Positions 13,344 to 61,685 of a DNA stretch of 64,000 nucleotides are shown in pieces; within the stretch, counting starts at the first letter, position 1, and every line of letters begins with the position of its first letter. The stretch spans positions 31,519 through 95,518 of the forward strand of contig JAPLVS010000045.1 in the NCBI GenBank assembly GCA_026396995.1. Direction: 5' to 3'. Made by a program: the position numbers and the translations under genes. A model generated the notes under the pieces. That model saw only the letters and a list, made by a program, of their open reading frames with translations. It was not told where the DNA came from and ran no database searches. The DNA is from Candidatus Iainarchaeum sp. (GTDB lineage: Archaea; Iainarchaeota; Iainarchaeia; Iainarchaeales; DTGL01).

Positions 13344-13416
13344 GCCGGAGTGGCGCAACCGGTAGCGCGGCACACTCGTAATGTGCAGGTTGGGGGTTCG
13401 ATTCCCCCCTTCGGCT
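13344..13416 (+). tRNA. tRNA-Thr (anticodon CGT)
   Basis: GCCGGAG-TG-GCGC-AACCGGTA-GCGC-G-GCACA-CTCGTAA-TGTGC-AGGTT-GGGGG-TTCGATT-CCCCC-CTTCGGC-T cloverleaf, followed by a T-run terminator. Confidence 0.85.
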
Positions 13417-15249: not shown

Positions 15250-16226
15250 GGTGTAGAAATCCTATTGGGGTACGAGGGTTAGCGTGATTTTGATTGTTCG
15301 CCCGATGTGTTCGATGTTGTAGGCTATTGCTTTGATGGTTGCTTGTTTTTGTTGGTTTGCAGCGTTTTTTGCTCTAACAAACCCTCCAAGGGTTTGTTTG
15401 ATTGCAGAATTCACTGATTCAGCTATTGCCCTTTTTTGATAAGTTTTCAGGTTAAATTTTTGCAGTGCTCTCCTGCGTTTAGCGCAATAATGTTGTTGGC
15501 CGTACTTGTCTTTTTGTGATGCGTGCTTTCTGAACGGAATATGCACGTTCAATCCATGCAACCAACAAAACTCCCTGTTCTCTAGAGAATCATAGCCTTT
15601 GTCAGCCAACACAGTCCGCAACACACTTAATAGTTCTTGCACCATAGGCCGAAACGTTGTAATCTCGTTCGAGTGGTCAGAAAAAGTTCGAACATTGAGC
15701 ACAAGTTTTGTGCTAATATCACTGATAAACACGGTTTTAGTATAGTTTGAATGGGTTACGCCGTCAACACGTTTTTCATAATAATGTGAAGGATTCGTGT
15801 TAGAAAAACCTGTTCCGTCAATCGCTGCAACACTATTCCTCACATTCAACAGTTTTGAACATGCTCGAACCATCAACTCAAACAATAGTTTTGGAGTGCG
15901 CTGCACAAACTTTTGCAGCGTACTAAAATGAGGGATGCGTTTCAAACCCAACATGTGCGCTATCTGGTTTTCTTCACAGATTTCAACAAAACGCCTATAC
16001 GAAACATTGAGTTTCTCTCTATAGACTGCGAGAAACGAGAGTTTGATGTTGCCATACATTTTTTTAGAAAACAAAGAGTTCCGGCAAGGCACTCCAGCCA
16101 ACCAACACAATCGCTCAACCAAACCATAAAAGTTATTAACCCGAACAGGATACAATCGCATTAGAGTCACCGATAAATAGGAGTGCAAACTCCTATTTAT
16201 CACTATTTAAAAAGGATTTCTACAGA
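15250..16226. mobile_element. Insertion sequence (~0.98 kb) with single DDE transposase gene and ~12-13-bp terminal inverted repeats
   Basis: tgtagaaatcct at ~15252..15263 and its reverse complement aggatttctaca at ~16213..16225 bracket the transposase ORF; internal perfect palindrome gataaataggagtgcaaactcctatttatc at ~16172..16201. Confidence 0.7.
15262..16203 (-). CDS. DDE transposase (IS4/IS5-superfamily-like)
   Basis: DGTGFS...DKGYDS...AIAESVNSAIKQTLGG motif blocks typical of PF01609-type transposases. Confidence 0.75.
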   Translation of the reverse strand: MINRSLHSYLSVTLMRLYPVRVNNFYGLVERLCWLAGVPCRNSLFSKKMYGNIKLSFLAVYREKLNVSYRRFVEICEENQIAHMLGLKRIPHFSTLQKFVQRTPKLLFELMVRACSKLLNVRNSVAAIDGTGFSNTNPSHYYEKRVDGVTHSNYTKTVFISDISTKLVLNVRTFSDHSNEITTFRPMVQELLSVLRTVLADKGYDSLENREFCWLHGLNVHIPFRKHASQKDKYGQQHYCAKRRRALQKFNLKTYQKRAIAESVNSAIKQTLGGFVRAKNAANQQKQATIKAIAYNIEHIGRTIKITLTLVPQ

Positions 16227-40741: not shown

Positions 40742-41635
40742 ATGGTCGCCATGATTCAGCGGGATGTTTTGCAGAAAAAATTCAAGGTTTTCATTGCACT
40801 GTCCGCATTCATCCTATTTCTGGAAGTCGCAGGCGGCATTTTTACGAACAGCCTGGCGCTGTTGAGCGATGCAGGCCATGTCCTTGTAGATTTGTCGGCT
40901 TTTATGCTGGCTTATTATGCAATACGGCTCTCGATGAAAGAACCGACAAAAAAGTTCACATTCGGGTATTACAGGGCTGAGATTTTATCTGCCGCAGTCA
41001 ACGGCCTCATACTGGTTTTCGTTACCTTGTATATCTTTTACGAGGCATACAGGCGCTTCTTTTCCCCGTTGCAGATAAAAGGGCCTGAAATGCTTGCAAT
41101 TTCGGTTATCGGATTAATTGCCAATTTATATGTTGTAATAAAAATGCACAGCCATGAAAAAGAAAACTTGAATATCAGGGCCGCATACCTTCATGCTTTG
41201 ACAGACACTTTGTCCTCTGCCGGCGTTGTCATTGCAGGCGTGCTGATAATATTCACAGGCAATCCTGTTTTTGACAGCATAACCAGCGCAATAATCGGAT
41301 TGCTGATACTGATAGGTTCGCTGAGATTACTGGCAGAATCTGCGCATGTGCTTATGGAAGCGGCCCCAAAAAACATTAACCTGGAGCACGTGATGGCGGA
41401 CATCCAAAAAATGGATGGGGTGAGGGGCGTGCATGATTTGCACATATGGTGCATAACCTCTGACGTTTATGCCCTCAGCTCCCATATCCTGATTGACGCG
41501 AAAAACGCAAAGGCAATGAATAAAATAATCTCCGGCATAAACAAAATGCTCAAATCAAAATACAATATAACGCACACAACAATCCAATCCGAATGCCAGT
41601 GCTGCGCAGACGGAAAAAACAAGCACAGCCATTAA
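40742..41635 (+). CDS. Cation diffusion facilitator (CDF) metal efflux transporter
   Basis: LAYYAIRLS...HxxxD pattern in TM2/TM5 (SDAGHVLVD, HALTDT), 6 TM + cytoplasmic C-domain; start trimmed to MVAMIQ. Confidence 0.8.
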   Translation: MVAMIQRDVLQKKFKVFIALSAFILFLEVAGGIFTNSLALLSDAGHVLVDLSAFMLAYYAIRLSMKEPTKKFTFGYYRAEILSAAVNGLILVFVTLYIFYEAYRRFFSPLQIKGPEMLAISVIGLIANLYVVIKMHSHEKENLNIRAAYLHALTDTLSSAGVVIAGVLIIFTGNPVFDSITSAIIGLLILIGSLRLLAESAHVLMEAAPKNINLEHVMADIQKMDGVRGVHDLHIWCITSDVYALSSHILIDAKNAKAMNKIISGINKMLKSKYNITHTTIQSECQCCADGKNKHSH

Positions 41636-41720
41636 GCCTTTTTGCAGGAATGGCTCCAAAAAAAACAGAAGTGCGGAGCAGCGACTTTTTGGTAGCGTTC
41701 TATTTCAGCGTGTTTCAGAA

Positions 41721-42554
41721 TCATTTCGATTTTTGCCTTGCCATGCGCCTCAATGCAAGGGCTGTCTTTCTTGGAATGCGCCCTTTCACGGTTGTGCCTG
41801 CCTTTGACCTGCCCCCATAGGCTCCAACCTTTGCCCCTGCTCTTTCTTGGGGCCACTCAGCTTCAGCCGCGAACTCCTCTCCATTCCGCAATGCTACGTC
41901 CCTGTATTCCCCTATTGCCTGTTTTGTCCCTTGCCTGCCCCTATGACGTTGCGCTTGACCGGATCTTTTTGTTCCAGTAATCCCGCGACCGCTTATTCCC
42001 TCAATTTTGCCAATATTTGTCAAATCGCCCCTCAACTTCAAAATCTTGGGATTCAAGAGTTCTCTAATTCTTAGAGCCTCTATGCTGCGTTTATCGTATC
42101 GCACTTCAGTGTCATGAATTTGGTTTCTTAATTTGAAAATTTCATCCAGTTTCCTTGAAGCAGGGTCAATCCTTCTTTTCCTTCTCTGAGGCCTTCCCTT
42201 TGACGGCTCATGGGCAGCCAAGTCACGGTTGTCAACGCCAACCATCCTGCTCCTAATAACGCCATCATACAATTCGACTGGTTTCCTGCTCTTGCCATCC
42301 CGATCATAAACAGTAACTGACTTTTCAATCCTTCGCACTGTGCTCTGGGAAATGTGAACAGTAGAACTCCTTTTTCCTGCATTGGCAATCTCGCCCTTTT
42401 CCCCTTTGAACGAACCGCCGGCTATGCGAACCTTTTCTCCTTTAGTGAAAGGAACACTTGCAGGCTTCCTGGTTTCCCGCCTGCGAGCTGGCTGTCTCCT
42501 CGAAAAGCTTTGTTGGCGCATCATTAAAATAAGGAGGGAAAAAATTAATAACAC
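41721..42554 (-). CDS. Basic KOW-motif protein, hypothetical
   Basis: KGEKVRIAGGSFKGEKGEIAN KOW-like motif; extremely Arg/Lys-rich. Confidence 0.35.
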   Translation of the reverse strand: MLLIFSLLILMMRQQSFSRRQPARRRETRKPASVPFTKGEKVRIAGGSFKGEKGEIANAGKRSSTVHISQSTVRRIEKSVTVYDRDGKSRKPVELYDGVIRSRMVGVDNRDLAAHEPSKGRPQRRKRRIDPASRKLDEIFKLRNQIHDTEVRYDKRSIEALRIRELLNPKILKLRGDLTNIGKIEGISGRGITGTKRSGQAQRHRGRQGTKQAIGEYRDVALRNGEEFAAEAEWPQERAGAKVGAYGGRSKAGTTVKGRIPRKTALALRRMARQKSK

Positions 42555-42582
42555 ACCACAAAAACCAGAGGGAACAAAATGA

Positions 42583-42616
42583 TGCGGAGCAGCAGATTCG
42601 AACTGCTGAAGGCGCT
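42583..42616 (-). repeat. 34-bp partial copy of tRNA-Leu 3' end (att-like direct repeat)
   Basis: tgcggagcagcagattcgaactgctgaaggcgct vs 43879..43912 tgcggagtagcagattcgaactgctgaaggcact (32/34). Confidence 0.6.
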
Positions 42617-42685
42617 ATTCGGGCATATTTAAGGGGTTACGTTATAGCGTAACCCTTTATATACTCTTAGGCGCATTATTTTTTC

Positions 42686-43888
42686 ATGCTTTCAGGCGAT
42701 TACAAGGGGTTGTTGGATAAATGGGTTTTGAGGGAAAAAACCCATAAACGGGACGTCGAGGACGAAATTCTGCCTTTTATAAGCCGCAAAAACGTGGTTT
42801 TTTTGTTCGGGCCGAGGCGCGCCGGAAAATCCGTTGTTGCCAGGAGGCTCCTGGAGAGGATGCCGAAAGGCTCAAATACAAGGTACGTCAACTTGGAAGA
42901 CCCAAAACTAATAAATTCCCTGAACACTGATCTGATGGAGTCTTTTGCGGAAGGGCTTGAGGCAGACGACACGATTGTTTTTGACGAGGTTCAGCTTATC
43001 CCGGGCTGGGAAAAATGGGCAAGGAAAGCGGTCGATACAAGGCAATGCCAGATAATAGTGACAGGTTCATCGGCAAAGCTTTTGAGCGGCGAGTTTGCCT
43101 CTTCCCTTGGCGGGAGGGACATTGGCTTTCAGATACTGCCTTTTTCTTTCGCCGAATTCCGCAGGATAACCAAAAAAGGGCTGGATGAATACCTGAAAAC
43201 TGGCGGTTATCCGGAGGTTGTCCTGAATCCGGAGAAAAAAGAAAAACTGCTGGAATCATATTTCGAGCTTGCGCTTATAAAAGACATTGTGACACGATAT
43301 CAGGTAAGGGATTCGGCCGCACTAAGGAATATGGCTTTTTACTTGCTGACCAATTCCGGAAAACAGGTAAGCCTTAAAGGGATAAGAAGCGTTCTCGGGC
43401 TGTCATATGACACGATAAAGCAATTCCTGGATTACCTGGAATCGGCTTTTCTTGTGTTCCAAGTGCCGTTCTTTTCTTACTCGATGAAAGAATCCCTCAC
43501 AAGAGCCAGGAAAGTCTATGCCTTTGACCTCGGAATGCAGCAATATGCATCCAGGTCTTTCACCGAGGACAAGGGAAGGCTGGCCGAAGCGGCAGCCGCA
43601 ATAGAGCTAAAACGCAGGCAATTTGAAATCTTTTACTGGAAAAACTCAAAAGAAACCGACCTTGTGGCAAAAAAGAAAACCAAGGTGATGCCAATAAACG
43701 TCTGTTTCGCGGAAACAATCCCCGCAAGGGAAAAAGACGGGCTCATTGAATTCTGCAAAAAAAACAGGGCAAAAAAAGCGACAATACTGTACGCCGGAAA
43801 AACAGCGAAAACCAGCCAGGAAAACATCGAAATAGAAACAAAAAACCTGCAGGAATGGCTCCTGGAAAAAAATAGCAGTGCGGAGTAG
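42686..43888 (+). CDS. AAA_14/DUF4143-type ATPase
   Basis: Walker A GPRRAGKS, Walker B IVFDEVQ, C-terminal DUF4143-like region; sits between the tRNA-Leu and its partial direct repeat. Confidence 0.75.
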   Translation: MLSGDYKGLLDKWVLREKTHKRDVEDEILPFISRKNVVFLFGPRRAGKSVVARRLLERMPKGSNTRYVNLEDPKLINSLNTDLMESFAEGLEADDTIVFDEVQLIPGWEKWARKAVDTRQCQIIVTGSSAKLLSGEFASSLGGRDIGFQILPFSFAEFRRITKKGLDEYLKTGGYPEVVLNPEKKEKLLESYFELALIKDIVTRYQVRDSAALRNMAFYLLTNSGKQVSLKGIRSVLGLSYDTIKQFLDYLESAFLVFQVPFFSYSMKESLTRARKVYAFDLGMQQYASRSFTEDKGRLAEAAAAIELKRRQFEIFYWKNSKETDLVAKKKTKVMPINVCFAETIPAREKDGLIEFCKKNRAKKATILYAGKTAKTSQENIEIETKNLQEWLLEKNSSAE

Positions 43889-43962
43889 CAGATTCGAACT
43901 GCTGAAGGCACTAAGCCACAAGGCCCTCAACCTTGCCGGTTAGACCGCTCCCGTAACTCCGC
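43879..43962 (-). tRNA. tRNA-Leu (anticodon GAG)
   Basis: GCGGAGT-TA-CGG-GAGCGGTCTAA-CCG-G-CAAGG-TTGAGGG-CCTTG-long variable arm TGGCTTAGTGCCTTC-AGCAG-TTCGAAT-CTGCT-ACTCCGC-A. Confidence 0.8.
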
Positions 43963-44031
43963 AGTATAAGAATATTGGAAACCATGGCTTTTAAGCCTTT
44001 CCAAAAGCCGGTTTTTCGCCTGATTGTTTTG

Positions 44032-44445
44032 TCACTTGAATGCTTTCGAAATCTTTTTCCTGTACAGGTCAATTTCGCCTTCTTCGTAGGCGCGCTTCGG
44101 CCACCTGAAGCCTGCCGCGTCGCCTTCATAGCGCGGAATCACGTGCAGGTGGAAGTGCATTACGACCTGGCCTGCTGCGCGGCCGTTGGACTGCAAAATG
44201 TTGATTCCTTCAGGCTTCAGGGATTTTTGGAGTGCCGCGGCGACCTTTTTTGCAGCCGCAGCGACAGCCTTCAGTTCAGTTTCAGGGATATCGGAAATGT
44301 TCGAATAATGCTTTTTCGGTATCACCAAAGCGTGGCCTTTATTCACCGGCGCAATATCAAGGAATGCCAAAACCTTTTTGCCCTCGTAGATTTTTGCGCT
44401 CGGGATTTTGCCTTCGGCTATCCTGCAGAAAATGCAGTCCTTCAA
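44032..44445 (-). CDS. HIT-family (histidine triad) nucleotide hydrolase
   Basis: HFHLHVIPR histidine triad, IFCRIAEGKIP N-terminus. Confidence 0.85.
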   Translation of the reverse strand: MKDCIFCRIAEGKIPSAKIYEGKKVLAFLDIAPVNKGHALVIPKKHYSNISDIPETELKAVAAAAKKVAAALQKSLKPEGINILQSNGRAAGQVVMHFHLHVIPRYEGDAAGFRWPKRAYEEGEIDLYRKKISKAFK

Positions 44446-44463
44446 TCTGTCACTTCCCTGAAT

Positions 44464-44835
44464 TCACGCGATTCTTATCTGGGCCATGTTCACTTTCCTG
44501 AAGGTCAGCGAAACCGGGCCGGCTGCGACAGCGTCCTTGAGGGTGCCGTGCACAGGGCCTGTCCCGTTGCCCCTAACTATAATGGACAAATCCCAAAGGA
44601 AGCCGTCAGTCAAAGCGTGGATTTTCCCGCTCATTGAGCCGATCTCGTAAGACCTGCCGGTCATATCCCTTTGCAGGCTGCAGGTTTTGCCTATCACCGA
44701 AATCGCGAAATTCTTTATGCTGCCCGAAGCCTCTACCGGCACAAACAGCCTGATGTCCTTTTCGGTCATTACTTTCTGCACTGCCTGCATTACGTTCTCG
44801 TTGTCGTTGACTTTAACCTCTACCAACTCTTGCAT
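44464..44835 (-). CDS. Hypothetical protein
   Basis: ORF; start trimmed to MQELVEV; no confident motif. Confidence 0.35.
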   Translation of the reverse strand: MQELVEVKVNDNENVMQAVQKVMTEKDIRLFVPVEASGSIKNFAISVIGKTCSLQRDMTGRSYEIGSMSGKIHALTDGFLWDLSIIVRGNGTGPVHGTLKDAVAAGPVSLTFRKVNMAQIRIA

Positions 44836-44893
44836 TGCTCTATCACCCCAAGAAGACAATTGAAAAAACGAATATAACAAAGGGAAAGAATCA

Positions 44894-45070
44894 TTTAAAA
44901 CCTTTTGCAGGGCTGTTTTCAGCCTGCCTGAACGCCAAGACAAATCAATGGCTTAAAACTTTGCGCAGGCTGTTTTCGCCATGCCAGAATCCGCCAAGGC
45001 AAATCAACGGTTTAAAACCTTTTGGAAGCCGATTCGGGCTTTCCCGAACGTTCCCGCAAGTGCTTTAAAA
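44894..45070. repeat. Three imperfect ~58-bp tandem repeats immediately upstream of the A2M-like gene
   Basis: Units begin ttaaaac(c)ttt...gctgttttc.gcc.tgcc.gaa..gccaag.caaatcaa.gg; copies 1-2 ~80% identical, copy 3 more diverged; each carries a TATA-like tttaaaa. Confidence 0.6.
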
Positions 45071-53095: not shown

Positions 53096-53273
53096 CGCCG
53101 AGAGAGGGATTCGAACCCCCGCATGCTTGCGCATACCAGCTCTTTGGCCAGCTGCAGAGAAGTGACTGATATATTAATCAAACTTTTTCTTTTCTTTCCG
53201 CAACTCCCTGTTCAAGCTTGGCTTGAACAGGAGGATTCCAGACTGGCGCGTTAGACCGCTCCGCCATCTCGGC
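53096..53273 (-). tRNA. tRNA-Ser (anticodon GGA) interrupted by ~94-nt intron
   Basis: 5' exon GCCGAGATGGCGGAGCGGTCTAACGCGCCAGTCTGGAA (~53236..53273), 3' exon AGCTGG-TATGCGCAAGCATGC-GGGGGTTCGAATCCCTC-TCTCGGC-G (~53096..53141); acceptor stems fully complementary; Ser-type long D loop and variable hairpin; intron contains perfect 11-bp-stem hairpin cctgttcaagc-caa-gcttgaacagg. Confidence 0.7.
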
Positions 53274-61512: not shown

Positions 61513-61685
61513 CGCCGAGAGAGGGATTTGAACCCCCGCATGCCAGAGGCATACCAGCTTACTCGCCGCAATATTTTGCTTTTGCCATGAGGTCTTTTCT
61601 TTTTGGCAAACCTAGGCTTTTTCTTTTATAAAAAGAAAAAGGCTGGGCTCAAGGCTGGCGCGTTAGACCACTCCGCCATCTCGGC
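61513..61685 (-). tRNA. tRNA-Ser (anticodon TGA) interrupted by ~89-nt intron
   Basis: 5' exon GCCGAGATGGCGGAGTGGTCTAACGCGCCAGCCTTGAG (~61648..61685), 3' exon A-GCTGG-TATGCCTCTGGCATGC-GGGGGTTCAAATCCCTC-TCTCGGC-G (~61513..61558); anticodon stem CCAGC/GCTGG; intron carries the aaagaaaag palindromic element. Confidence 0.7.

What the first reader, a model, noticed from the sequence alone, without database searches (positions are those of the whole stretch)
42583..43962. Integration footprint at tRNA-Leu(GAG): 34-bp direct repeat of the tRNA 3' end brackets a single AAA_14/DUF4143 ATPase gene
The complete tRNA-Leu (43879..43962, minus strand) is followed ~1.3 kb downstream by a partial copy of its last 34 nt (42583..42616, 32/34 identical). 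This is the classic attL/attR signature of site-specific integration into a tRNA 3' end. The only cargo between the repeats is a 400-aa Walker A/B ATPase of the archaeal AAA_14/DUF4143 family. No integrase is present, so this looks like a decayed integrated element or a minimal gene cassette. The adjacent KOW-motif basic protein (41721..42554) may be additional cargo lying outside the repeat.
Basis: seen in the sequence. Interest (0 to 1): 0.55.

Follow-up and report, generated by a model that had tools for sequence, protein, structure and literature searches.

The report
Single-gene defence cassette beside tRNA-Leu
A 1.26-kb one-gene cassette (an ATPase-nuclease of a candidate antiviral family, with its own promoter and operator) sits exactly between two copies of the end of a tRNA-Leu gene in a DPANN archaeon. 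The same cassette turns up at many unrelated places in related genomes with no integrase beside it, so it looks like an insertion of the kind already described for restriction-modification genes in bacteria.

Summary
tRNA-Leu(GAG) lies at 43878-43962(-), and its last 35 nt recur at 42583-42617 (33/35; 0 expected by chance).

I found a third junction copy at 41643-41682: 15 nt of the ATPase 3' end, an oligo-A run, and 11 nt of the tRNA end. The KOW-like gene therefore also lies between repeats.

- **The cargo is a complete unit, not debris.** DNA homology to 13 related loci always falls inside 42618-43877, which is exactly the interval between the repeats. The unit consists of a 20-bp palindrome, a TATA box and an AAA_14/DUF4143 gene (PADLOC PDC-S01, 3e-90).
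- **It moves between unrelated sites.** Flanking genes differ at every locus examined. None of the others is next to a tRNA, and none has an integrase inside the repeats.
- **Flanking repeats are a recurrent feature.** 6 of 14 loci carry direct repeats of local host sequence (21-770 bp) against 0 of 48 control windows. In one locus the two copies diverged under purifying selection, so one copy was imported with the cassette.
- **Best reading (0.5):** integrase-independent insertion with long target duplication, repeated at this tRNA.
- **Main rival (0.3):** classical integrase-mediated integration, with the integrase lost or acting in trans.

This is a new member of a known kind and is moderately interesting.

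The parts
43878..43962 (-). Intact tRNA-Leu(GAG). Its last 35 nt (43879-43913) are the right-hand repeat copy.
   Evidence: ARAGORN. Rfam RF00005 47.2 bits. Orthologous tRNA-Leu(GAG) genes in L003, L004, L005 and L009.
42583..42617 (.). Left-hand repeat copy: a 35-nt fragment of the tRNA-Leu 3' end, 33/35 identical, running from the variable-arm loop to the discriminator. It differs at acceptor position 66 (G where the tRNA has A) and in the variable loop.
   Evidence: No pseudo-tRNA is detected here.
42618..43877 (+). The mobile cassette: an upstream A/T-rich box, a palindromic operator, a TATA box and the ATPase ORF up to its conserved ...EWL end. The last codons and the stop codon are supplied by the flank.
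   Evidence: blastn of the window against 13 cassette loci: all homology lies inside 42618-43877. Boundary alignments. L030 against L038 and L024 is 89-90% identical over 1245 nt with unrelated flanks.
42635..42654 (.). 20-bp palindrome GGTTACGTTA|TAGCGTAACC, an operator-like site directly 5' of the TATA-like box TTTATATA (42656-42663), which ends 23 nt before the ATG.
   Evidence: Present upstream of the ATPase gene in all 14 loci that have upstream DNA. Occurs once in the window, 0.02 expected. Binding by the ATPase's winged-helix part is inferred, not shown.
42686..43888 (+). AAA_14/DUF4143 ATPase-nuclease gene (400 aa), PADLOC PDC-S01. The stop codon lies inside the tRNA acceptor stem.
   Evidence: Pfam. 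PADLOC PDLC04787 3.1e-90. 42-sequence alignment with invariant Walker A/B residues and C-terminal D281, E301, E323, D325. AF2 pLDDT 91, with Foldseek matches to Apaf-1, Orc1/Cdc6 and Avs AAA+/winged-helix modules.
43866..43872 (-). Oligo-T run (T7 on the tRNA strand) directly after the tRNA, probably the tRNA terminator. On the + strand it supplies the codons EKN of the ATPase tail.
   Evidence: Read from the sequence. A-rich runs also precede the other two copies of the tRNA end and the tRNA ends in L005 and L009. The terminator function is inferred from general knowledge of archaeal transcription.
41643..41682 (.). Third junction copy. It holds the last 15 nt of the conserved cassette end (TGCAGGAATGGCTCC, 41643-41657), A8 plus CAGAAG (41658-41671), and the first 11 nt of the tRNA 3' end (TGCGGAGCAGC, 41672-41682). 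The tRNA part carries the same variant base as the 35-nt fragment.
   Evidence: 36/42 identical to 43848-43889 (D14/D16, 9, 13). It starts 8 nt after the cation-efflux gene stop at 41633-41635.
41721..42524 (-). ORF for a very basic 267-aa protein with a weak N-terminal KOW-like motif. It is bracketed by the third junction copy and the 35-nt fragment, whose first 11 nt are identical.
   Evidence: Only itself in the 5.8-billion word-indexed search. Five weak relatives by full HMMER. One relative sits in a chromosomal context. Weak KOW hits. It is not a decayed ATPase copy. The AF2 model is poor, pLDDT 53.

Best explanation
The 35-bp repeat marks the insertion of a self-contained 1.26-kb single-gene cassette immediately after tRNA-Leu(GAG). 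The cassette consists of a palindromic operator, a promoter and a PDC-S01-type AAA+/winged-helix/PD-(D/E)xK gene.

The cassette itself is the unit that moves. It is not the remnant of a larger element. It carries no recombinase.

It travels with a piece of its previous neighbour, here the last 35 nt of a slightly different tRNA-Leu. It enters by recombination in that homologous piece, as a Campbell-type single crossover of a circular form using host recombination functions. This duplicates the target on both sides. That is the 'insertion with long target duplication' pattern described for restriction-modification genes.

The locus records further events:
- An earlier or tandemly amplified cassette copy, of which only the last 15 nt plus the tRNA junction survive (41643-41682).
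- An insertion of the KOW-like gene into the older tRNA fragment, with an 11-bp duplication (TGCGGAGCAGC).

**Shown:** the repeats, the cassette boundaries, its occurrence at unrelated loci, the excess of flanking repeats, and the foreign origin of one repeat copy in L015.

**Inferred:** the circular intermediate, the use of host recombination, the order of events, the defence function, and operator binding.
For: 1. The repeats are real and non-random.
2. Homology to 13 other cassette loci is confined to 42618-43877, the exact gap between the fragment end (42617) and the tRNA end (43878).
3. The cassette is a discrete transferable unit. L030 against L038 and L024 is 89-90% identical over about 1245 nt (from -70 of the ATG to about 15 nt before the stop) with unrelated flanks. 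L024 and L038 are 97% identical through the upstream flank and the cassette, and diverge right after the EWL codons.
4. The neighbours differ at every locus. They are mostly housekeeping genes: ABCE1/glycosyltransferase, ThrRS/deoxyhypusine synthase, Na_Ca_ex, aminotransferase and others.
5. No other copy is next to a tRNA, and no tRNA-like sequence occurs in those loci.
6. Direct repeats of local sequence flank 6 of 14 cassettes against 0 of 48 shifted control windows, Fisher p=5e-5. Lengths are 35 bp (window), at least 34 and about 100 bp (L015), about 770 bp (L010), 175 bp (L037), 24 bp (L023) and 21 bp (L029).
7. In L015 the two copies of the Na_Ca_ex 3' end differ at 33/102 nt, 21 of them at third codon positions. 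None of 20000 random mutants was as conservative. The copies therefore diverged as working genes in different lineages, and one came in with the cassette.
8. Repeats that include the cassette's own 3' end occur in both the window (41643-41682) and L037. L009 has a 29/32 scar of it near the same tRNA. This fits tandem amplification or re-insertion followed by loss.
9. Both tRNA fragments carry C where the working tRNA and all relatives carry T (position 43886). The fragments therefore share a source different from the resident tRNA.
10. The published analogue is Furuta et al. 2010, PMC2853133.
Against: - The target is the 3' end of a tRNA, the textbook site of tyrosine-integrase elements. Furuta et al. 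themselves warn that tRNA-like repeats may be site-specific events.
- 8 of 14 cassette loci show no flanking repeat.
- No circular form, empty-site read or strain lacking the cassette was observed. The nearest 'empty' sites (L005, L009) are from other species (HIT protein 63% identical).
- How the cassette first reaches a new locus is not explained by homologous recombination alone.
- One locus (L017) has a Phage_integrase gene 3.2 kb downstream, outside the repeats. Integrases acting in trans therefore exist in these organisms.
- The sample is 14 loci, mostly from metagenome contigs.
Confidence: 0.5

Rival explanations
1. Classical site-specific integration. A tRNA-Leu-targeting integrative element or island, driven by a tyrosine integrase, integrated one or more times. 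The fragments are attR-type copies. The integrase and other genes were later deleted, or the small cassette is mobilised in trans by an integrase encoded elsewhere (a CIME-like or satellite arrangement).
For: - An intact tRNA plus a direct repeat of its 3' part is the standard attL/attR signature.
- Three nested copies resemble tandem accretion at a tRNA hotspot.
- Content downstream of this tRNA varies among relatives, and one MAG has two contigs ending in the tRNA 3' part.
- Defence genes are common island cargo. An integrase lies near one cassette copy (L017).
Against: - There is no integrase between the repeats, none among the 10 unassigned ORFs I scanned, and none within the repeat-bounded segments of other loci. 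The other ORFs of the window were judged by eye only.
- Deletion would have had to trim the element on both sides exactly to the boundaries of a cassette that exists independently elsewhere.
- Other copies are flanked by unrelated sequences of very different length rather than one att core.
- The tRNA's present 3' end matches its own 5' half (U7-A66) and the relatives' tRNAs, while the displaced fragments carry the odd bases. For a crossover at the 5' edge of the identity block one expects the reverse.
- The identity block starts in the variable loop rather than the anticodon loop or T loop (my recollection of Williams 2002, not checked here).
- The tRNA 22-mer and the ATPase are absent from IMG/VR.
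Confidence: 0.3
2. Purely local rearrangement with no horizontal insertion. The ATPase gene has long been next to tRNA-Leu. Local tandem duplication of the gene-tRNA junction, followed by deletions and an unrelated insertion of the KOW-like gene, produced the fragments.
For: - L009, a different species, has a scar of the same ATPase 3' end downstream of its tRNA-Leu (29/32 nt). The association may therefore be old.
- The third copy repeats the cassette/tRNA junction itself, as a tandem duplication would.
- GC content of the cassette (46%) is close to that of the window (48%).
Against: - The cassette is plainly transferable: 89-90% identity with unrelated flanks.
- ATPase identity to other DPANN lineages is 76-81%. 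This exceeds the 63% identity of the neighbouring HIT protein to the closest genome found in the one genome-collection scan.
- The fragments share a base that differs from the resident tRNA.
- In L015 the duplicated flank was clearly imported.
- In L009 the scar lies about 300 nt from the tRNA, not at the same junction.
Confidence: 0.12
3. The repeat is a chance match or an assembly artefact.
For: The source is a metagenome-assembled genome. Short Logan contigs break near the repeats (L001 starts at 42553, L002 ends at 43877).
Against: - 0 of 100 shuffles give a second match.
- An independent assembly from another run (L001) reproduces 42553-44056 at 100%, including both repeat copies and the cassette.
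Confidence: 0.02

Closest known systems
Insertion with long target duplication of restriction-modification gene units (Nobusato et al. 2000; Furuta, Abe and Kobayashi 2010, PMC2853133)
   Same: - A small defence-type gene unit with no transposase or integrase.
- It is flanked by direct repeats of the target that are long (over 30 bp) and differ in length from site to site, often overlapping the 3' end of a neighbouring gene.
- There are traces compatible with the proposed 'insert, amplify via the repeats, release' cycle: repeats that include the unit's own end in the window and in L037.
   Different: - The cargo is a single ATPase-nuclease gene, not an R plus M pair.
- The hosts are DPANN archaea. 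That survey retained no archaeal case.
- The repeat copies here are often strongly diverged (7-30%), and in L015 demonstrably from different lineages.
- The unit has sharply conserved ends, a conserved operator, and no stop codon of its own.
- The mechanism is unknown in both cases.
tRNA-gene integrative elements and genomic islands, and their integrase-less derivatives (CIME-type cis-mobilisable elements)
   Same: An intact tRNA plus a displaced copy of its 3' part. Nested copies suggest repeated use of the site. Defence-type cargo.
   Different: - No integrase and no other mobility or replication gene.
- The insert is one gene that exactly fills the interval.
- The same insert elsewhere is not at tRNA genes and is flanked by unrelated repeats.
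PDC-S01 (PADLOC putative defence candidate) = AAA_14 + DUF4143, COG1373
   Same: Full-length match to PDLC04787 (3.1e-90). An ATPase fused to a PD-(D/E)xK-superfamily domain, as described for PDC-S01 (PMC12988326; PMC3424549). [quoted passage not shown]
   Different: The papers I read treat it as a gene family found in defence islands. I found in them no description of a fixed promoter/operator cassette, of its boundaries or of flanking target duplications. Its antiviral activity is still untested according to PMC12988326.
Integron gene cassettes
   Same: A single-ORF mobile unit that needs functions supplied in trans.
   Different: Integron cassettes are usually promoterless, end in an attC site, and insert at attI next to an integron integrase. 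This cassette has its own promoter and operator, no attC-like element was seen, it inserts at many unrelated sites, and no integron integrase is nearby. This comparison rests on my own knowledge of integrons.

Membership tests
tRNA-targeted integrative element (integrase att footprint) | Intact tRNA gene plus a direct repeat of its 3' portion bounding the insert | tested here: met
   43879-43913 against 42583-42617, 33/35. The tRNA is intact.
tRNA-targeted integrative element (integrase att footprint) | Integrase (tyrosine or serine recombinase) gene inside the repeat-bounded segment | tested here: not met
   The only ORFs between the repeats are the ATPase (AAA_14/DUF4143) and, in the outer interval, the KOW-like ORF with no recombinase hit. 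10 further unassigned ORFs of the window held no integrase.
tRNA-targeted integrative element (integrase att footprint) | One conserved att core shared by all copies of the element | tested here: not met
   13 other cassette loci have no tRNA or tRNA-like sequence. Their flanking repeats are unrelated host sequences of 21-770 bp.
tRNA-targeted integrative element (integrase att footprint) | Empty site in related genomes | tested here: inconclusive
   L005 and L009 have tRNA-Leu(GAG) followed by a shared A-rich spacer and no cassette. They are different species, and L009 carries a cassette scar. No same-species empty site was available.
Insertion with long target duplication (criteria of Furuta et al. 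2010) | Insert under 20 kb carrying defence-type genes and no other mobility genes | tested here: met
   A 1.26-kb insert with a single PDC-S01 gene. It is not an R plus M pair, so the original criterion (i) is met only by analogy.
Insertion with long target duplication (criteria of Furuta et al. 2010) | Direct duplication of the target longer than 30 bp, variable between sites | tested here: met
   35 bp in the window. At least 34 and about 100 bp in L015, 175 bp in L037, about 770 bp in L010. 6/14 loci against 0/48 controls.
Insertion with long target duplication (criteria of Furuta et al. 2010) | Comparison genome of the same species with a single, uninterrupted target | not testable with these tools
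   No second genome of this species was found.
PDC-S01 / AAA_14-DUF4143 (COG1373) | Full-length profile match | tested here: met
   PDLC04787 3.1e-90 over residues 15-395. PF13173 7e-31 and PF13635 4e-21, both above the gathering scores.
PDC-S01 / AAA_14-DUF4143 (COG1373) | Intact P-loop ATPase motifs | tested here: met
   G42, G47, K48 (Walker A) and D100, E101 (Walker B) are invariant in 42 homologues. The AF2 model has pLDDT 91 with an AAA+/STAND-like fold.
PDC-S01 / AAA_14-DUF4143 (COG1373) | Active PD-(D/E)xK nuclease site | tested here: inconclusive
   D281, E301, E323 and D325 are invariant, and there is a weak YraN-like match at 288-343. I could not assign a canonical (D/E)xK lysine, and Foldseek top hits cover only the ATPase and winged-helix part.
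PDC-S01 / AAA_14-DUF4143 (COG1373) | Protection against viruses | not testable with these tools
   Described as still awaiting experimental validation (PMC12988326).

The most novel reading that the evidence does not exclude
The ATPase-nuclease is not passive cargo. It drives its own spread as a recombinase-free selfish gene. Its winged-helix part would bind the conserved palindrome at the cassette's left end, and its PD-(D/E)xK domain would make breaks at or near the cassette ends. Repair of those breaks would copy or insert the cassette, with long and variable duplications of whatever lies next to it. That would be a new class of mobile element in DPANN archaea. It could also explain why PDC-S01 genes are so abundant whether or not they defend against viruses.
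Probability: 0.1. Interest if true: 0.8.

Novelty: new member of a known kind. Interest (0 to 1): 0.45.

Why it matters

This locus and 13 related ones show three things:
- At least one DPANN clade of the family travels as a sharply bounded promoter-operator-gene cassette.
- The cassette lands between housekeeping genes without an adjacent recombinase.
- It is often flanked by long duplications of the target. That signature had been described only for restriction-modification genes in bacteria.

The work yields concrete objects to test: a 20-bp operator, cassette ends defined to a few bases, and a predicted circular junction. It also bears on annotation. A tRNA 3'-end repeat around a single gene need not be the wreck of an integrase-bearing element.

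Tried and rejected
- **KOW region as a decayed ATPase copy.** Rejected: no DNA or translated similarity, and Smith-Waterman scores no better than shuffles.
- **KOW-like protein as a recombinase.** No family hit beyond a weak KOW motif. Five weak relatives only. One relative is in a chromosomal context next to pilus/T2SS genes. The single-sequence AF2 model is too poor to search with.
- **Cassette as a tRNA-seeking element.** Rejected: 0 of 13 other loci have a tRNA beside the gene or any tRNA-Leu-like sequence.
- **Viral or proviral origin.** The tRNA 22-mer and the ATPase are absent from IMG/VR. My first scan for the palindrome used the wrong spacing (N5 instead of N6). The corrected scan found one unrelated tailed-phage contig with no ATPase.
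- **Source contig and strain variants.** Only two short Logan contigs were found. The KOW protein is not indexed. L002 ends 1 nt past the tRNA 3' end, which could reflect population heterogeneity there, but short contigs break for many reasons, so I drew no conclusion.
- **Rfam.** Runs on the whole window and on 3.6 kb missed tRNA-Leu because of speed filters. A 161-nt run found it.
- **Solved structures.** There is no sequence relative of the ATPase in the PDB.
- **Weak repeats.** The flanking repeats in L013, L019, L030 and L039 were not counted as support.
Full report
**1. Source and observation**

The window comes from a DPANN archaeon. The KOW-like ORF is identical to a protein of a 'Candidatus Diapherotrites archaeon' MAG, and the closest tRNA-Leu loci are from Candidatus Iainarchaeum MAGs.

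ARAGORN finds tRNA-Leu(GAG) at 43878-43962 on the minus strand with a regular cloverleaf. Rfam RF00005 gives 47.2 bits on a short stretch.

Its last 35 nt (43879-43913) recur at 42583-42617 with 33/35 identity. A 30-mer pattern with up to 3 mismatches hits only these two places in 64 kb, and none in 100 shuffles. The repeat starts in the loop of the variable arm, runs to the discriminator base, and ends sharply. No pseudo-tRNA is detectable around the fragment.

Between the copies lies one ORF (42686-43888, 400 aa) with AAA_14 and DUF4143 domains. Its TAG stop lies inside the tRNA acceptor stem. An independent Logan assembly reproduces 42553-44056 at 100%.

**2. A third copy**

The stretch 41643-41682 matches 43848-43889 at 36/42. 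It contains three parts:
- the last 15 nt of the conserved ATPase end (TGCAGGAATGGCTCC);
- an oligo-A run, which is oligo-T on the tRNA strand and probably the tRNA terminator;
- the first 11 nt of the tRNA 3' end.

It starts 8 nt after the stop of the cation-efflux gene. Its 11 tRNA bases are identical to those of the 35-nt fragment. Both carry C where the working tRNA has T at 43886, and where all relatives' tRNAs have T at the equivalent position.

The KOW-like ORF (41721-42524) is therefore bracketed by two copies of TGCGGAGCAGC. That ORF is not a decayed ATPase. It has only five weak relatives among 1.8 billion representatives, one of them in an ordinary chromosomal context. It shows no recombinase signature.

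**3. What the cargo is**

The protein matches PADLOC's PDC-S01 model over its full length (3.1e-90). According to PMC12988326, PDC-S01 is an ATPase fused to a PD-(D/E)xK-superfamily domain. [quoted passage not shown] DUF4143/COG1373 is listed in the PD-(D/E)XK superfamily (PMC3424549).

In 42 homologues the Walker A and B residues and several C-terminal acidic residues are invariant. An AlphaFold model (pLDDT 91) resembles the AAA+/winged-helix modules of Apaf-1, Orc1/Cdc6, Avs proteins, RuvB and RFC. No PDB entry is related by sequence.

**4. The cargo is a discrete cassette**

About 45 proteins from DPANN MAGs and metagenomes are 60-81% identical to it. I fetched 13 distinct loci.

- **Upstream region.** Every locus with upstream DNA has the same arrangement: an A/T-rich box, the 20-bp palindrome GGTTACGTTA|TAACGTAACC, and a TATA-like box about 23 nt before the ATG. 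The window has it once, at 42635-42654.
- **Extent of homology.** blastn of window 41000-45000 against the 13 loci gives homology only inside 42618-43877. That is the exact interval between the end of the 35-nt fragment (42617) and the end of the tRNA (43878).
- **Boundaries seen in other pairs.** L030 shares 89-90% identity over about 1245 nt with L038 and L024, from 70 nt upstream of the ATG to about 15 nt before the stop, with unrelated flanks. L024 and L038 are 97% identical through the upstream flank and the cassette, and diverge right after the codons for ...EWL.
- **No stop codon of its own.** The last few codons and the stop are supplied by whatever follows. This explains why the window's ORF ends inside the tRNA.
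- **Neighbours.** They differ at every locus and are mostly housekeeping genes.
- **tRNA and viruses.** No other copy is beside a tRNA, and no tRNA-Leu-like sequence is present in those loci. Neither the cassette nor the tRNA 22-mer occurs in IMG/VR.

**5. Flanking repeats are a recurrent feature**

I used the same blastn test on 1-kb flanks for every locus. 6 of 14 cassettes have direct repeats at E<1e-4, against 0 of 48 windows of the same size shifted by 2.5-5 kb (Fisher p=5e-5). The repeats are pieces of local host sequence:

| Locus | Repeat | What is duplicated |
|---|---|---|
| window | 35 bp | tRNA-Leu 3' end |
| L015 | 34 bp at 91%, extending to about 100 bp | Last 34 codons of a Na/Ca-exchanger gene; the right copy starts at the ATPase stop |
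| L010 | about 770 bp | A whole gene of 264/233 aa on both sides; the right copy starts at the ATPase stop |
| L037 | 175 bp at 93% | Starts 29 nt before the ATPase stop, so it includes the cassette's own end as in the window's third copy; the upstream copy is fused to the end of an fn3-domain gene |
| L023 | 24 bp | Weak |
| L029 | 21 bp | Weak |

In L015 the two copies differ at 33 of 102 nt, 21 of them at third codon positions and 3 at second positions. None of 20000 random mutants with 33 changes was as conservative. The copies therefore diverged as parts of working genes in different lineages, which means one of them arrived with the cassette.

**6. Relatives of the tRNA-Leu site**

- L009 (HIT protein 63% identical) keeps the o159-HIT-tRNA-Leu order. 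It has no cassette, but about 300 nt from the tRNA it carries a 32-nt scar (29/32) of the ATPase end, directly after the stop of a membrane-protein gene.
- L005 shares L009's A-rich spacer and has no scar.
- L003 and L004 have another gene at that position.
- L006 has a Fic gene between the HDAC gene and the tRNA end. L006 and L008, from one MAG, both break inside the tRNA 3' part.

The site is variable, and the cassette has been near this tRNA in more than one lineage.

**7. Interpretation**

The 'decayed element' reading is not supported, because the insert is an intact unit that fits the interval to within a few bases.

A single integrase with a single att site does not explain repeats of unrelated sequence and very different length at other loci. 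It also does not explain the absence of any recombinase within the repeats.

The pattern matches 'insertion with long target duplication' described for restriction-modification units (Furuta et al. 2010, PMC2853133). Those authors propose a cycle of insertion with a long duplication, amplification through the repeats, and release. They caution that tRNA-like repeats may be site-specific events. No archaeal case survived their selection.

I therefore favour (0.5) the following. The cassette moves as a small circle that carries a piece of its former neighbour and recombines in the homologous sequence of the recipient. At this locus a second round (tandem amplification or re-insertion) was followed by loss of one body, leaving 41643-41682. 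The KOW-like gene then inserted with an 11-bp duplication. The circle, the use of host recombination and the order of events are inferences.

Rival readings:
- Classical integration with a lost or trans-acting integrase: 0.3.
- Purely local duplication: 0.12.
- Chance or assembly artefact: 0.02.

**8. Novelty and interest**

A tRNA-end repeat is ordinary, and PDC-S01 is a catalogued family. In the papers I read I found none of the following described:
- the sharply bounded operator-promoter-gene cassette;
- its lack of a stop codon of its own;
- its scatter among housekeeping genes of DPANN archaea;
- the significant excess of long, variable and partly foreign target duplications.

I rate it a new member of a known kind, with interest 0.45. 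The most novel reading still open is that the ATPase-nuclease mobilises its own gene (probability about 0.1).

Noticed in passing
window 42626-42663, and upstream of the ATPase gene in L010, L013, L015, L019, L023, L024, L027, L029, L030, L037, L038, L039, L041: A 20-bp perfect or near-perfect palindrome (GGTTACGTTA|TAACGTAACC), flanked on both sides by TATA-like A/T boxes, is conserved at the DNA level in front of every gene of this ATPase clade. It looks like an autoregulatory operator on the promoter. It was not seen upstream of the distant homologues in L032 and L033, or of the second AAA_14 gene in L039.
   Followed up: partly
window 53096-53273(-) and 61513-61685(-): Rfam calls two long tRNA matches (41 and 45 bits, about 175 nt), probably intron-containing tRNA genes. 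ARAGORN run without the intron option did not report them.
   Followed up: no
window 15262-16161(-): A 299-aa ORF with a DDE_Tnp_1 transposase domain (5.5e-19). It is the only clear mobility gene found in the window, about 27 kb from the finding and about 1.9 kb from tRNA-Thr (13344-13416).
   Followed up: no
window 44898-45048: Two to three diverged tandem copies of a 57-59-nt unit (about 72% identical) lie in the spacer between the 159-aa ORF and the 1962-aa ORF. The Logan contig L002 from another run does not align across part of this stretch (L002 63-168), so the array may vary in the population.
   Followed up: no
L007 7000-7530: In another archaeal MAG the tRNA-Leu(GAG) homologue appears to carry a long intron after the anticodon, and ARAGORN without the intron option missed it. 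It is immediately preceded by an ORF ending with a LAGLIDADG-like motif (GLFDTDG). Here the HIT gene is convergent with the tRNA rather than upstream of it.
   Followed up: no
L013 7290-7380: An inverted repeat of about 17 nt resembling a tRNA T-arm (TTAGGATTTGAACTTTTG ... CAAAGTTCAAATCCTAA) lies downstream of the cassette. It could be a hairpin terminator, a miniature element or tRNA debris. A HIT gene also lies 1.3 kb upstream of this cassette copy.
   Followed up: no
L019 6001-10081, L017 5526-8315, L039 2662-5188: Some cassette copies sit in defence or toxin-antitoxin neighbourhoods. In L019 the neighbours are Fic, MazE/PemK and HATPase_c_4. In L017 a Phage_integrase and AbiEii lie 3 kb downstream. 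In L039 a second, different AAA_14 ATPase gene is directly upstream.
   Followed up: no
L024 2985 / L038 5183: Two genomes that are 97% identical through 2.2 kb of upstream flank plus the cassette become unrelated within a few bases after the EWL codons. The right end of the cassette is therefore a rearrangement or insertion breakpoint between close relatives.
   Followed up: partly
L002 (SRR20698648) end = window 43877; L001 (SRR20698647) start = window 42553: Short Logan contigs from two runs of the same study break 1 nt past the tRNA 3' end and 30 nt before the 35-nt fragment (k-1 for k=31; that Logan assembles with k=31 is my assumption and was not given by any tool output). This is compatible with sequence heterogeneity exactly at the repeat boundaries but does not prove it.
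   Followed up: partly
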